A stretch of DNA of 64,000 bases from the human T2T-CHM13v2.0 reference genome, Homo sapiens. The position numbers and the translations under genes are program-made. A model generated the notes under the pieces. The model was not told the origin of the DNA. It was given only the letters and a program-made list of their open reading frames with translations, and made no database searches. Location: assembly GCF_009914755.1 (NCBI RefSeq), contig NC_060948.1. One strand, 5' to 3'. This document shows positions 39,208 to 57,929 of the stretch, piece by piece (position 1 is the first letter of the stretch; the number at the start of each line of letters is the position of its first letter).

Positions 39208-40110
39208 GGGGGGGGCCAAGATGGCCGAATAGGAACAGCTCTCATCTACAGCTCCCAGCGTGAGCGACGCAGAAGATGGGTGATTTCTGCATTTCCATCT
39301 GAGGTACCGGGTTCATCTCACTAGGGAGTGCCAGACAGTGGGTGCAGGCCAGTGGGTGGGCGCACTGGGCGCGAGCCGAAGCAGGGCGAGGCATTGCCTC
39401 ACCTGGGAAGCCCAAGGGGTCAGGGAGTTCCCTTTCTGAGTCAAAGAAAGGGGTGACAGATGCACCTGGAAAATCGGGTCACTCCCACCCGAATATTGCG
39501 CTTTTCCGACGGGCTTAAAAAACGGAGCACCACGAGATATATCCCACCCCTGGCTCAGAGGGTCCTACACCCACGGAGTCTTGCTGATTGCTAGCACAGC
39601 AGTCTGAAAACAAACTGCAAGGCAGCAGCGAGGCTGGGGGAGGGGCGCCCGCCATTGCCCAGGCTTGCTTAGGTAAACAAAGCAGCCGGGAAGCTCCAAC
39701 TGGGTGGAGCCCACCACAGCTCAAGGAGGCCTGCCTGCCTCTGTAGGCTCCACCTCTGGGGGCAGGGCACAGACAAACAAAAAGACAGCAGTAACCTCTG
39801 CAGACTTAAATGTCCCTGTCTGACAGCTTTGAAGACAGCAGTGGTTCTCCTAGCACGCAGCTGGAGATTTGAGAACGGGTGGACTGCCTCCTCAAGTGGG
39901 TCCCTGACCCCTGACCCCCGAGCAGCCTAACTGGGAGGCACCCCCCAGCAGGGGCACACTGACACCTCACACGGCAGGGTATTCCAACAGACCTGCAGCT
40001 GAGGGTGCTGTCTGTTAGAAGGAAAACTAACAAACAGAAAGGACATCCACACTGAAAACCCGTCTGTACATCACCATCATCAAAGACCAAAAGTAGATAA
40101 AACCACAAAG
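39208..40110 (+). promoter_or_regulatory. L1 5'UTR internal sense promoter / antisense promoter, YY1 site (aagatggcc) intact
   Basis: Canonical CpG-containing L1 5'UTR; ccaagatggccg at ~39216-39227. Confidence 0.8.
39515..39655 (-). pseudogene. L1 ORF0, frameshifted and truncated
   Basis: MAGAPPPASLLPCSLFSDCCASNQQDSVGVGPSEPGVGY matches ORF0, then diverges and stops early. Confidence 0.8.
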
Positions 40111-40196
40111 ACAGGGAAAAAACAGAACAGAAAAACTGGAAACTCTAAAACGCAGAGCGCCTCTCCTCCTCCAAGAAACGCAGTTCCTCACCAGCA

Positions 40197-41126
40197 ATGG
40201 AACAAAGCTGGATGGAGAATGACTTTGACGAGCTGAGAGAAGAAGGCTACAGACGATCAAATTACTCTGAGCTACGGGAGGACATTCAAACCAAAGGCAA
40301 AGAAGTTGAAAACTTTGAAAAAAATTTAGAAGAATGTGTAACTAGAATAACCAATACAGAGAAGTGTTTAAAGGAGCTGATAGAGCTGAAAACCAAGGCT
40401 CGAGAACTACATGAAGAATGCAGAAGCCTCAGGAGCCGATGCGATCAACTGGAAGAAAGGGTATCAGCAATGGAAGATGAAATGAATGATATGAAGCGAG
40501 AAGGGAAGGTTAGAGAAAAAAGAATAAAAAGAAATGAGCAAAGCCTCCAAGAAATATGGGACTATGTGAAAAGACCAAATCTACGTCTGATTGGTGTACC
40601 TGAAAGTGATGCGGAGAATGGAACCAAGTTGGAAAACACTCTACAGGATATTATCCAGGAGAACTTCCCCAATCTAGCAAAGCAGGCCAACGTTCAGATT
40701 CAGGAAATACAGAGAACGCCACAAAGATACTCCTCGAGAAGAGCAACTCCAAGACACATAATTCTCAGATTCACCAAAGTTGAAATGAAGGAAAAAATGT
40801 TAAGGGCAGCCAGAGAGAAAGGTTGGGTTACCCTCAAAGGGAAGCCCATCAGACTAACAGCGGATCTCTCGGCAGAAACCCTACAAGCCAGAAGAGAGTG
40901 GGGACCAATATTCAACATTCTTAAAGAAAAGAATTTTCAACCCAGAATTTCATATCCAGCCAAACTAAGCTTCATAAGTGAAGGAGAAATAAAATACTTT
41001 ACAGACAAGCAAATGCTGAGAGATTTTGTCACCACCAGGCCTGCCCTAAAAGAGCTCCTGAAGGAAGCGCTAAACATGGAAAGGAACAACCAGTACCAGC
41101 CGCTGCAAAATCATGCCAAAATGTAA
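40197..41126 (+). CDS. L1 ORF1p lacking residues 1-29 (309 aa; coiled coil, RRM and CTD retained)
   Basis: MEQSWMENDFDELREEG...REKG...ARREW...YPAKLS...QNHAKM. Native ATG at 40111 is ACA. Expression unknown. Confidence 0.7.
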   Translation: MEQSWMENDFDELREEGYRRSNYSELREDIQTKGKEVENFEKNLEECVTRITNTEKCLKELIELKTKARELHEECRSLRSRCDQLEERVSAMEDEMNDMKREGKVREKRIKRNEQSLQEIWDYVKRPNLRLIGVPESDAENGTKLENTLQDIIQENFPNLAKQANVQIQEIQRTPQRYSSRRATPRHIILRFTKVEMKEKMLRAAREKGWVTLKGKPIRLTADLSAETLQARREWGPIFNILKEKNFQPRISYPAKLSFISEGEIKYFTDKQMLRDFVTTRPALKELLKEALNMERNNQYQPLQNHAKM

Positions 41127-41188
41127 AGACCATCAAGACCAGGAAGAAACTGCATCAACTAACGACAAAATCACCAGCTAACAACATA

Positions 41189-55877: not shown

Positions 55878-56889
55878 TTACAATTTGGCATGATTTTGCA
55901 GTGGCTGGTACTGGTTGTTCCTTTCCATATTTAGTGCTTCCTTCAGGAGCTCTTTTAGGGCAGGCCTGGTGGTGACAAAATCTCTCAGCATTTGCTTGTC
56001 TGTAATGGATTTTATTTCTCCTTCACTTATGGAGCTTAGTTTGGCTGGATATGAAATTCTGGTTTGAAATTCTTTTAAGAATGTTGAATATCGGTGCCCC
56101 CTCTCTTCTGGCTTGTAGAGTTTCTGCCAAGCAATCAGCTGTTAGTCTGATTGGCTTCCCTTTGTGGGTAACCTGACCTTTCTCTCTGGCTGCCCTTAAC
56201 ATTTTTTCCTTCATTTCAACTTTGGTGAATCTGACAATTATGTGTCTTGGAGTTTCTCTTCTCGAGGAGTATCTTTGTGGCGTTCTCTGTATTTCCTGAA
56301 TCTGAATGTTGGCCTGCTTTGCTAGATTGGAGAAGTTCTCCTGGATAATATCCTGCAGAGTGTTTTCCAAGTTGGTTCCATTTTCCCCGTCACTTTCAGG
56401 TTCACCAATCAGATGTAGATTTGGTCTTTTCACATAGTCCCATATTTCTTGGAGGCTTTGTTCATTTCTTTTTATTCTTTTTTCTCTAAACTTCCCTTCT
56501 CACTTTATTTCATTGATTTCATCCTCCATCACTGATACCCTTTCTTCCAGTTGATCTCATTGGCTCCTGAGGCTTCTGCATTCTTCAAGAAGTTCTTGAG
56601 CCTTGGCTTTAAGCTCCATCAGCTCCTTTAAGCACTTCTCTGTATTGGTTATTCTAGTTATACATTCTTCTAAATTTTTTTCAAAGTTTTCAACTTCTTT
56701 GCCTTTGGTTTGAATTTCCTCCTGTAGCTCAGAGTAGTTTGATCGTCTGAAGCCTTCTTCTCTCAGCTCGTCAAAGTCATTCTCCATCCATCTTTGTTCC
56801 GTTGCTGGTGAGGAGCTGCATTCCTTTGGAGGAGGAGAGGAGCTCTGCTTTTTAGAGTTTCCAGTTTTTCTGCTCTGTTTTTTCCCTAT
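55878..56889 (-). pseudogene. L1 ORF1, disrupted (start ATG to ATA, stops and frameshift)
   Basis: Fragments MENDFDELREEGFRRSNYSELQEE... and KRPNLHLIGEPESDGENG... Confidence 0.88.
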
Positions 56890-57471
56890 CTTTGTGGTTT
56901 TATCTACTTTCGATCTTTGATGATGGTGATGTACAGATGGGTTTTTGGTGTGGGTGTCCTTTCTGTTTGTTAGTTTTCCTTCTAACAGACAGGACCCTCA
57001 GCTGCAGGTCAGTTGGAGTTTGCTAGAGGTCCACTCCAGACCCTGTTTGCCTGGGTATCAGCAGCGGTGGCTGCAGAACAGCAGATTTTCGTGAACTGGG
57101 AATGCTGCTGTCTGATCTTCCTCTGTAAGTTTTGTCTCAGAGGAGTACCTGGCCCTGTGATGTGTCAGTCTGCCCCTACTAGGGGGTGCCTCCCAATTAG
57201 GCTGCTCGGAGGTCAGGGGTCAGGGACCCACTTGAGGAGGCAGTCTGCCTGTTCTCAGATCTCCAGCTGCGTGCTGGGAGAACCACTGCTCTCTTCAAAG
57301 CTGTCAGACAGGGATATTTAAGTCTGCACAGGTTACTACTGTCTTTTTGTTTGTCTGTGCCCTGCCCCCAGAGGTGGAGCCTACAGAGGCAGGCAGGCCT
57401 CCTTGAGCTGTGGTGGGCTCCACCAAATTCCAGCTTCCCGGTTGCTTTGATTACCTAAGGGAGCCTCGGCA

Positions 57472-57546
57472 ATGGCAGGCACCCCTCCCCCAGCCTGGCT
57501 GCCGCCTTGCAGTTTGATCTCAGACTGCTGTGCTAGCAATCAGTGA
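57472..57546 (+). pseudogene. L1 ORF0 with premature stop
   Basis: atggcaggcacccctccccc... = MAGTPPPAWLPPCSLISDCCASNQ then TGA. Confidence 0.75.
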
Positions 57547-57929
57547 GACTCTGTGGGCATAGGACCCTCCGAGACAGGTGTGGGATATAATCTCTTGGTG
57601 TGCCGTTTTTTACACCCATTGGAAAAGCACTATATTAAGGTGGTAGTGTCCTGATTTTCCAGTTGCCATCTGTCACACCTTTCTTTGACTAGGAAAGGGA
57701 ACTCCCTGATCCCTTGCACTTCTCAAGAGAGGCAATGCCTCACCCTGCTTCGGCTGGTGCACGGTGCACTGCACCCACTGTCCTGCACCCACTGTCTGGC
57801 ACTCCCTAGTAAGATGAACCCTGTACCTCAGATGGAAATGCAGAAATCACCCATCTTCTGCATCACTCACGCTGGGAGCTGTAGGCCAGAGCTGTTCCTA
57901 TTCAGCCATCTACTAATCCTGTTTTTACA

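What the first reader, a model, noticed from the sequence alone, without database searches (positions are those of the whole stretch)
39208..57911. Inverted pair of full-length L1s from different subfamilies sharing private, inactivating mutations: likely arm-to-arm gene conversion
The + copy (L1PA2-like, short 5'UTR) and the - copy (L1PA3-like, long 5'UTR) are independent insertions about 6.4 kb apart. Both carry the same ORF2 nonsense codon (TSQLK*, GAA to TAA; 42155-42157 and 54849-54851). Both have G-to-A at the third base of the ORF1 start codon (40113 / 56887). Both have ORF1 NLAKQAN (40681 / ~56318), ORF2 SKTDH (41799 / ~55207), aatgacaaa (42376 / ~54632) and IFDQPE (43943 / ~52928). 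These are non-CpG changes relative to the consensus as I recall it, and an active source element could not carry the stop. Inference: the two L1s act as a self-made quasi-palindrome (centre ~48.5 kb) exchanging short tracts, like Y-palindrome arm conversion but between divergent retrotransposons.
Basis: partly seen in the sequence, partly recalled or inferred. Interest (0 to 1): 0.8.

Follow-up and report, generated by a model that had tools for sequence, protein, structure and literature searches.

The report
Neighbouring Y-chromosome L1 copies swapping short patches
Three LINE-1 retrotransposon copies within 19 kb on the human Y chromosome share a few very rare mutations in short patches, best explained by small gene-conversion events between neighbours, which is a known process and not palindrome-like homogenisation.

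Summary
They are not equally telling. 41799C and 42376C are common (3 of 39 and 5 of 40 panel copies). The ORF1 ATA is in 4 of 100 sampled copies. The ORF2 stop is in 140 copies against 7822, on several subfamily backgrounds. A and B alone give only a marginal excess of exclusive shared alleles: 4, or 3 robust, against about 1.0 expected. They are 6.98% divergent, no closer than unlinked pairs, so nothing palindrome-like is happening.

All three copies carry 43943 A>C, found 12 times genome-wide against 6034. A and C alone carry 43927G with 43943C. B and C share four rare alleles within 90 nt, a haplotype unique in the genome. C shares exclusive alleles with B (4) and A (3); 37 unlinked copies share 0 or 1.

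Verdict: short-patch non-allelic gene conversion among clustered L1s. It is well supported for B-C and A-C, and roughly two to one in favour for the shared stop codon. This is a new example of a known process.

The parts
39208..45277 (+). L1 copy A: full-length, short 5'UTR, youngest clade (L1PA2-like; name not tested against Dfam)
   Evidence: Colinear with 40 full-length L1s and lacks the 127-nt 5'UTR segment. Carries the young state at 53 of 57 diagnostic sites. AAATGAAG occurs on both flanks as a possible target-site duplication. ORF2 stops at 41585, 42155 and 44663; ORF1 start codon reads ACA and there is a frameshift before 40234.
51613..57925 (-). L1 copy B: full-length, long 5'UTR, older clade (sister of L030)
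   Evidence: Carries the old state at 45 of 57 diagnostic sites. Has 141 alleles seen in no other copy, against 56 for A. Many stops and frameshifts. The 5' end is diverged, so the limit lies somewhere between 57911 and 57925.
57019..57150 (-). Stretch of B that holds the 127-nt 5'UTR segment absent from A
   Evidence: 127 alignment columns are present in B and gapped in A. They are present in the long-5'UTR panel copies and absent in 13 short-5'UTR copies. Limits come from the neighbouring aligned sites.
50417..51620 (-). L1 fragment C: internal ORF2 piece equivalent to A 43581-44785. It abuts B's poly(A) on one side and non-L1 sequence on the other.
   Evidence: 94.7% identical to A over 1207 nt. 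Similar subfamily neighbourhood to B. Ends shown.
52742..52831 (-). B side of the B-C patch (A-equivalent 44040-44129): rare alleles T, C, T, A
   Evidence: Panel carriers 1, 0, 0, 0 of 37. The 39-mer holding two of the alleles is exact only in B and C, and all 63 one-mismatch hits lack one of the two. The 109-mer at up to 3 mismatches finds only B, C and one copy on C4 that, in the 80 nt shown, lacks two of the three rare alleles visible there.
51073..51162 (-). C side of the B-C patch. Largest possible extent is A-equivalent 44011-44147. Two differences inside it (44051 and 44120).
43927..43943 (+). A side of A-C patch 1: 43927G with 43943C. Largest possible extent 43916-43980.
   Evidence: 43927G word: 49 places. 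43943C word: 12 places. The only places holding both are A and C. Sequence shown.
51258..51274 (-). C side of A-C patch 1
43745..43752 (+). A side of A-C patch 2: 43745C (transversion) with 43752A (a CpG transition, also in B). Largest possible extent 43682-43756.
   Evidence: The 43745C word has 27 places genome-wide, including A and C. No carrier among 37 panel copies. Sequence shown.
51449..51456 (-). C side of A-C patch 2
52928..52928 (-). B's copy of the three-way shared allele 43943C
42155..42157 (+). Shared ORF2 stop TAA in A (consensus-type copies read GAA)
   Evidence: 140 against 7822 genome-wide. Present on several subfamily backgrounds in the 20 copies fetched. The identical A-B run around it is 59 nt.
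54849..54851 (-). The same stop in B
40113..40113 (+). ORF1 start codon third base G>A in A (B: 56887)
   Evidence: ATA in 4 of the first 100 of 3849 listed copies. The identical A-B run around it is 14 nt.
40681..40681 (+). ORF1 G>A (Arg to Lys) in A (B: 56318)
   Evidence: 42 against 3823 genome-wide. The identical A-B run around it is 23 nt.

Best explanation
A, B and C are three separate L1 insertions that came to lie within 19 kb on the non-recombining part of the Y.

Inferred mechanism. Since then, occasional repair or recombination events on the same chromatid or between sister chromatids used a neighbouring L1 as template. Each event copied a very short patch, at least 8-90 nt and at most about 65-137 nt. 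This is non-allelic (ectopic) gene conversion.

Shown. Rare alleles are shared only among the local copies, are clustered in patches, and form haplotypes unique in the genome.

Inferred. The mechanism, its direction and its timing. Events involving A must postdate A's insertion.

Strength of evidence falls with distance:
- B-C: direct repeats 1.7 kb apart, 4-5 alleles.
- A-C: inverted, about 7.4 kb apart, 3 alleles.
- A-B: inverted, 9-17 kb apart, single isolated sites.

The shared ORF2 stop, the ORF1 ATA and 40681A may have moved the same way. Each could also be a coincidence. I put the stop at roughly two to one for transfer. The process touches about 1-2% of informative sites and does not homogenise the copies.
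For: 1. 43943 A>C is in 12 places genome-wide against 6034 for the usual allele. Three of the 12 are A, B and C. Two of the others are one duplicated pair on C21.
2. 43927G (49 places) and 43943C (12 places) occur together only in A and C. From the two frequencies, the chance for one given other copy is about 1e-5 (the denominator for 43927 is borrowed from 43943).
3. B and C share 44040T, 44089C, 44108T and 44129A within 90 nt, with 1, 0, 0 and 0 carriers among 37 panel copies. The haplotype is unique in the genome. Over the whole 1.2 kb, B and C are only 94.9% identical.
4. Alleles that C shares with one copy and no outsider: B 4, A 3. Of 37 unlinked copies, 5 share one and 32 share none. 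Poisson P is about 4e-4 for 3 or more, and 2e-4 for 4 or more even at twice the rate.
5. Clustering: 5 random sites all fall within 186 of 1203 nt with P = 0.003.
6. B and C are sisters in a tree of the C range, but not after masking 223 columns around the three patches.
7. A-B has the highest count of exclusive shared alleles among 228 young-by-old pairs. 11 of B's 222 deviations match A, against 2-7 for the other young copies.
8. Literature, passages read. [quoted passage not shown] Conversion tracts from endogenous LINEs as small as 13 bp occur in cell culture (PMC1920257, citing Tremblay et al. 2000).
Against: 1. For A-B alone the excess is marginal: 4 shared alleles (3 if the edge site 39214 is dropped) against 1.0 expected, P = 0.02 or 0.08. 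Two other pairs of 228 reach 3.
2. Every A-B shared site is isolated. The identical runs around them are only 14-59 nt, with no neighbouring marker co-transferred.
3. The stop is frequent for a transversion (1.7%) and recurrent on at least three backgrounds. ATA is at about 4%.
4. B and C lie in the same subfamily neighbourhood. Some B-C sharing could therefore come from a common source. Two differences lie inside the B-C patch.
5. The panel is small: 40 copies from one chromosome, 3 of them dropped as aberrant.
6. No second assembly, read data or ape orthologue could be examined. Neither an assembly artefact nor the before-and-after states were tested.
Confidence: 0.68

Rival explanations
1. 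Pure coincidence. All shared alleles are independent recurrent mutations (homoplasy) in old, heavily mutated Y-linked copies, and no sequence moved between copies.
For: The stop, ATA, 41799C and 42376C are recurrent or common. A and B carry more private alleles than their clade-mates (56 and 141), which raises the rate of coincidences. For A-B alone P is only 0.02-0.08. 43752A and 44406/44407 are CpG decay.
Against: 43943C at about 0.15% is present in all three neighbours. Two multi-allele haplotypes are unique in the genome. C's exclusive sharing is 3 and 4 with its neighbours against 0-1 with 37 unlinked copies. The shared sites are clustered.
Confidence: 0.08
2. Common descent for B and C. 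Both come from one rare source element, or from one complex insertion event, and inherited the shared alleles. A's matches would then be chance or a single small conversion.
For: B and C are adjacent, in the same orientation and in the same subfamily neighbourhood. C is an odd internal fragment without its own 3' end. A source differing from its subfamily at about 5 sites per 1.2 kb is ordinary.
Against: The shared alleles are packed into 90-186 nt of 1203 (P = 0.003-0.007) instead of being spread out. Contrast the C21 duplicate pair, which has 8 shared rare alleles spread over 1.4 kb. No other progeny with the haplotype exist. B and C differ at polymorphic subfamily sites 43756, 44413, 44455 and 44457 and stop being sisters once the patches are masked. 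This reading cannot explain A-C sharing at 43745, 43927 and 43943.
Confidence: 0.1
3. Templated mutagenesis by replication template switching between nearby repeats, that is fork stalling or quasi-palindrome-type correction, and not recombinational repair. The sequence outcome is the same but the enzymology differs.
For: The patches are very short (17-137 nt at most). A is inverted relative to B and C. Isolated single-site matches fit very short templated synthesis.
Against: The B-C patch is between direct repeats. The distances of 1.7-17 kb are large for intramolecular switching. Nothing in the sequence separates this from short-tract gene conversion.
Confidence: 0.09
4. Assembly or polishing artefact. 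Reads from one L1 copy were used to correct another.
For: Repeats are where such errors occur.
Against: The copies differ by 5-7%, which is far above what confuses accurate long reads. Neighbouring private differences a few nucleotides from each shared site were left intact. This was not tested with reads.
Confidence: 0.03
5. A and B act as arms of a self-made quasi-palindrome under ongoing arm-to-arm conversion, like the Y palindromes.
For: Inverted orientation, about 6.3 kb spacer, Y-linked, and some shared rare alleles.
Against: 6.98% divergence, no lower than unlinked pairs. A is young at 53 of 57 diagnostic sites and B old at 45 of 57. The longest identical run is 100 nt. The flanks are not homologous.
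Confidence: 0.02

Closest known systems
Non-allelic gene conversion between neighbouring Alu elements (Aleshin and Zhi 2010, seen only as cited in passages of PMC6598467 and PMC8230782)
   Same: Non-diagnostic rare mutations are shared by nearby copies of an interspersed repeat. [quoted passage not shown] It acts between different subfamilies.
   Different: Here the repeats are 6-kb L1s, not 300-nt Alus. This is one locus, not a genome-wide statistic. The patches cover only 1-2% of the element. Direction and dating are unknown.
[quoted passage not shown]
   Same: Diverged L1 copies serve as repair templates, and tracts can be very short (as small as 13 bp according to PMC1920257).
   Different: That was an induced break in cultured mouse cells, with donors anywhere in the genome. 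Here the events are germline and fixed, and the donors are apparently the nearest neighbours.
Arm-to-arm gene conversion in Y-chromosome palindromes (Rozen et al. 2003; recalled, not read here)
   Same: Intrachromosomal exchange between inverted repeats on the male-specific Y.
   Different: Palindrome arms are duplicates kept about 99.97% identical (recalled figure). A and B are independent insertions, 93% identical, and are not being homogenised.
True inverted L1 duplicate pair on contig C21 (38411356 and 38425110), found here
   Same: Inverted L1 pair about 14 kb apart that shares 43943C.
   Different: 98.6% identical, with 8 shared rare alleles spread over 1.4 kb. That is what duplication looks like. 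The Y trio shows only small clustered patches on diverged backgrounds.

Membership tests
Full-length LINE-1 (L1PA) insertion, for A and B | Colinear 5'UTR, ORF1, ORF2, 3'UTR and poly(A), about 6 kb | tested here: met
   Aligned end to end with 40 full-length copies. ORF remnants on both strands. A-rich tails.
Full-length LINE-1 (L1PA) insertion, for A and B | Target-site duplication marking an independent insertion | tested here: inconclusive
   A has AAATGAAG on both flanks, 8 nt and possibly longer with a mismatch. For B no clear duplication was seen; its 3' side runs straight into fragment C.
Different L1PA subfamilies (reader: L1PA2-like and L1PA3-like) | Diagnostic sites and the 5'UTR indel place the two copies in different clades | tested here: met
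   A is young at 53 of 57 sites and B old at 45 of 57. The 127-nt segment is absent in A and present in B, and the two fall in separate clades.
Different L1PA subfamilies (reader: L1PA2-like and L1PA3-like) | B specifically L1PA3 | tested here: inconclusive
   B branches below the long-5'UTR copies closest to the young clade, which suggests an older subfamily. No Dfam consensus was at hand, so names rest on recall.
Non-allelic gene conversion between neighbouring repeats | Shared derived alleles that are rare in the family at large | tested here: met
   43943C 12 against 6034. 43927G 49 places. 43745C 27 places. 40681A 42 against 3823. Two haplotypes are unique in the genome.
Non-allelic gene conversion between neighbouring repeats | Shared alleles clustered in tracts and flanked by discordant sites | tested here: met
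   Met for B-C (four alleles in 90 nt) and A-C (two alleles in 17 nt, two in 8 nt). Not met for the A-B sites outside the C range, which are single and isolated.
Non-allelic gene conversion between neighbouring repeats | Excess over unlinked control pairs | tested here: met
   C shares 4 and 3 with its neighbours, against 0-1 in 37 controls. For A-B alone the excess is only marginal: 4 against 1.0 expected.
Non-allelic gene conversion between neighbouring repeats | Tree changes along the sequence | tested here: inconclusive
   B and C are sisters with all 1205 columns and not sisters with 982 columns after masking the patches. The alignment is short and support values were not assessed.
Non-allelic gene conversion between neighbouring repeats | Before and after states at the orthologous locus in other species or haplotypes | not testable with these tools
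   No ape genome and no second human Y assembly is held.
Y palindrome / inverted-repeat arm homogenisation | Arms are duplicates of each other, flanks included | tested here: not met
   The copies are from different subfamilies. There is no inverted homology between 25001-39207 and 57912-64000 beyond short old repeats of 75-93%.
Y palindrome / inverted-repeat arm homogenisation | Arms kept far more alike than unlinked copies | tested here: not met
   A-B has 419 differences in 6001 sites (6.98%). Unlinked comparisons give 5.0-7.0%.

The most novel reading that the evidence does not exclude
Clustered, 5-7% diverged L1 copies on the non-recombining Y exchange micro-patches of tens of nucleotides often enough to pass null alleles, such as the ORF2 stop, between independent insertions of different subfamilies. 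The rate falls off with distance over 2-17 kb. If this is general, such micro-conversion would plant false shared mutations in L1 phylogenies and age estimates. In principle it could also inactivate or repair neighbouring elements.
Probability: 0.3. Interest if true: 0.5.

Novelty: new member of a known kind. Interest (0 to 1): 0.35.

Why it matters
This locus gives a clean natural example of very short gene-conversion patches between diverged L1 copies. Each donor-recipient pair has its own signature, and the evidence weakens with distance. Most published evidence for conversion between interspersed repeats concerns Alu (passages of PMC8230782 say so).

For practice:
- Rare shared mutations between neighbouring L1s cannot be read as common descent.
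- Age estimates from divergence can be slightly off in repeat clusters.
- A shared stop codon in two neighbours is not by itself proof of transfer when the mutation is recurrent.

It does not reveal a new kind of structure or mechanism.

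Tried and rejected
1. Larger palindrome. The annotated pseudogenes ZNF884P and ZNF885P lie almost symmetrically around the L1 pair. However, the flanks 25001-39207 and 57912-64000 show no inverted homology. 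Rejected as far as the window reaches; 64001-68010 was not examined.

2. A 'stop-codon lineage' of L1. Twenty of the 140 TAA-bearing places were fetched with 500 nt on each side. They were taken in list order from C1-C3. I skipped the element already in the panel and the clustered places at C1 16.0-16.6 Mb, C1 144.5-148.6 Mb and C2 95.1-98.1 Mb. The stop sits on young-type backgrounds (3 of 19 at site 41865), on old-type backgrounds, and on a group with alleles absent from the panel (5-8 of 20). Rejected: the mutation is recurrent.

3. Mosaic structure of A or B at subfamily-diagnostic sites. A is 'old' at only 2 of 57 sites, both CpG-type in the 5'UTR. B's 8 'young' states are largely shared with its sister L030 or are hypervariable sites. 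No long tract was found.

4. BLAST neighbours of A in the genome. The tool skips common words, so hits are enriched for copies that share A's rare words. They were not used for frequencies.

5. A panel of 80 copies. L005, L017 and L022 were dropped from most counts because of 1003, 1512 and 542 gapped columns and very long branches.

6. Other L1PA-grade donors in the window. None exist besides A, B and C; the other L1 pieces are 72-86% identical.

7. The C21 pair sharing 43943C, as a possible second example. It is a plain inverted duplication.

8. Earlier findings of this scan.

9. Literature searches found general papers on conversion between repeats but nothing on this locus. One search was mostly swamped by an unrelated phrase. 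I make no claim that the locus is undescribed.

Full report
**Anatomy.** The region holds three L1PA-grade copies, not two.
- A (plus strand, 39208-45277) and B (minus strand, about 51613-57911/57925) are colinear full-length elements in inverted orientation.
- C (minus strand, 50417-51620) is an internal ORF2 piece equivalent to A 43581-44785. It is 94.7% identical to A. It starts right after B's poly(A) and ends in non-L1 sequence.
- All other L1 pieces in the window are 72-86% identical to A.
- A has a possible 8-nt target-site duplication, AAATGAAG.
- The flanks of A and B are not inverted copies of each other.

**Reference panel.** I built a panel from the window's own genome. A 26-nt word around the ORF1 start lists 3849 places. 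The panel was aligned with A and B. Three copies with large gaps and very long branches (L005, L017, L022) were dropped from most counts.

In the tree, A sits inside the clade that lacks a 127-nt 5'UTR segment, next to the youngest copies. B has the segment and branches with L030, below the long-5'UTR copies nearest the young clade. At 57 sites that separate the young clade from B's group, A is young at 53 and B is old at 45. B looks older than L1PA3-like, but the names were not checked against Dfam.

All are present.

| Site | Shared allele in panel | Genome-wide exact-word count |
|---|---|---|
| 40113A | 0 of 40 | ATA in 4 of the first 100 listed |
| 40681A | 0 of 39 | 42 against 3823 |
| 41799C | 3 of 39 | not counted |
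| 42155T (stop TAA) | 1 of 39 | 140 against 7822 |
| 42376C | 5 of 40 | not counted |
| 43943C | 0 of 39 | 12 against 6034 |

Two of the six are therefore ordinary polymorphisms, and the start-codon change is common.

I asked whether the stop marks a lineage. I fetched 1 kb around 20 of the 140 places. The stop sits on young-type, old-type and still older backgrounds. It is a recurrent mutation, as expected for a change no active source could carry, and at about 1.7% it is not very rare.

Both elements carry many other lesions. A has ORF2 stops at 41585 and 44663 and an ORF1 frameshift. B has numerous stops and frameshifts.

**Is A-B sharing more than chance?**
- Across 12 young by 19 old copies (228 pairs), I counted alleles shared by a pair and by no other copy. 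A-B has 4, the maximum. One of the four (39214) lies at the poorly aligned 5' edge. The distribution over the 228 pairs is 168, 45, 12, 2 and 1 pairs with 0, 1, 2, 3 and 4 such alleles.
- A and B also have the heaviest private loads of their groups apart from L002. Scaling A's rate with the 18 other old copies (12 shared alleles in all) to B's load gives 1.0 expected. P is 0.02 for 4 or more and 0.08 for 3 or more.
- Of B's 222 departures from the non-young copies, 11 match A, against 2-7 for the other young copies.
- The shared sites are isolated. Identical runs around them are 14-59 nt, and the longest A-B run anywhere is 100 nt. Of 435 informative A-B sites, only 9 show unexpected agreement.
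- A-B divergence is 419 of 6001 sites (6.98%). Unlinked young copies against B give 6.5-7.0%, and A against unlinked B-like copies gives 5.7-6.5%.

Nothing resembling palindrome homogenisation is taking place.

**The third copy changes the picture.** Adding C to the alignment shows three things.
- C also carries 43943C. Three of the 12 places in the genome with that word are therefore this trio. Two more are one inverted duplicate pair on C21, which is 98.6% identical with 8 shared rare alleles spread over 1.4 kb. That pair shows what true duplication looks like.
- A and C also share 43927G, 16 nt away, and 43745C. The 43927G word has 49 places and none of the other 47 coincides with a 43943C place, so the two-allele haplotype exists only in A and C. 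The 43745C word has 27 places including A and C.
- B and C share 44040T, 44089C, 44108T and 44129A within 90 nt, with 1, 0, 0 and 0 carriers in the panel. A 39-mer holding two of them is exact only in B and C, and all 63 one-mismatch hits lack one of the two. A 109-mer at up to 3 mismatches finds only B, C and one copy on C4 that, in the 80 nt shown, lacks two of the three rare alleles visible there.

Over the whole 1.2 kb, B and C are only 94.9% identical, no closer than C is to A or to unlinked copies.

Counting the alleles C shares with one copy and no outsider gives B 4 and A 3. Of 37 unlinked copies, 5 share one and 32 share none. P is about 4e-4 and below 2e-4. Five random sites would all fall within 186 of 1203 nt with P = 0.003. 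B and C are sisters in a tree of the C range, but not once 223 columns around the patches are masked.

**Explanation.** These patterns are the standard signature of non-allelic gene conversion: rare alleles shared only by neighbours, in small clusters, on otherwise diverged backgrounds.

| Pair | Orientation and distance | Smallest patch | Largest possible patch (A-equivalent) |
|---|---|---|---|
| B-C | direct, 1.7 kb | 90 nt | 137 nt (44011-44147), with two later or unrepaired differences |
| A-C, patch 1 | inverted, about 7.4 kb | 17 nt | 65 nt (43916-43980) |
| A-C, patch 2 | inverted, about 7.4 kb | 8 nt | 75 nt (43682-43756) |

43943C reached all three copies. Evidence weakens as distance grows: B-C, then A-C, then A-B at 9-17 kb. 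This fits the distance dependence reported for Alu within 10 kb and at sex-chromosome hotspots (passages of PMC6598467 and PMC8230782, citing Aleshin and Zhi 2010). Very short tracts from endogenous LINE donors are reported in cell culture (a passage of PMC1920257, citing Tremblay et al. 2000).

The mechanism, the direction and the dates are inferred, not shown. Events involving A must be younger than A.

For the three A-B sites outside C's reach, I weighed a per-site transfer rate of about 5% (about 3 excess alleles over roughly 60 private alleles of A) against the chance rates from the genome counts. This is my own rough arithmetic. It gives about 0.8 for 40681A, about 0.65 for the stop and about 0.5 for ATA.

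**Rivals.**
- Coincidence alone cannot produce the unique haplotypes and the three-way 43943C.
- A common source for B and C is possible for part of their sharing. It does not fit the clustering, the lack of other progeny, or A's matches with C.
- A polishing artefact is unlikely at 5-7% divergence with intact private differences next to the shared sites, but it was not tested.
- Replication template switching would leave the same footprint.

**Standing.** Conversion between nearby interspersed repeats is established, so this is a new instance and not a new kind. The palindrome analogy and the weight placed on the stop codon are not supported.

Noticed in passing
window 28828-29630 (-), and 67382-68010 (+) outside the window: The annotated pseudogenes ZNF884P and ZNF885P lie in inverted orientation almost symmetrically about the same centre as the L1 pair: 9578 and 9471 nt from the outer ends of A and B. 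The flanks inside the window show no inverted homology. The stretch 64001-68010 was not read.
   Followed up: partly
window 53367-53657 (-): B carries a tandem duplication of about 149 nt (53367-53515 and 53514-53657; A-equivalent about 43352-43505). The two units are only 90.6% identical, which is more diverged than B's private load would predict.
   Followed up: partly
genome-wide; listed places: The ORF2 G>T stop word is unusually frequent for a transversion: 140 against 7822. The other transversions counted here run at 0.15-0.8%. Of the 17 listed places on C1, 11 fall in two clusters (16.0-16.6 Mb and 144.5-148.6 Mb), so segmental duplication inflates the count. Five to eight of the 20 fetched copies share alleles absent from the panel.
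   Followed up: partly
L061 and L062 (G000:C21:38410660-38412080 and 38424410-38425830): An inverted L1 pair 13.7 kb apart is 98.6% identical, with 8 shared rare alleles spread over 1.4 kb. It is a genuine inverted duplication or small palindrome on contig C21.
   Followed up: partly
genome places: Copies carrying 43745C come in triplets with identical 24-mers on C3 (63.30, 63.63 and 64.52 Mb) and on C12 (86.47, 86.78 and 87.08 Mb). This may reflect duplicated blocks or a small lineage.
   Followed up: no
window 49846-49937: A short, low-complexity, self-complementary stretch lies in the spacer between A and C.
   Followed up: no
window 40111-40234: Besides the lost start codon (ACA), A's ORF1 is shifted. 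The start-codon frame closes at 40234, while the long open frame 40149-41126 is in another frame.
   Followed up: partly
window 50330-50417: Fragment C stops inside ORF2 (A-equivalent 44785) and is followed by unrelated sequence. C therefore lacks its own 3' end and poly(A), so it is not a simple 5'-truncated insertion.
   Followed up: no
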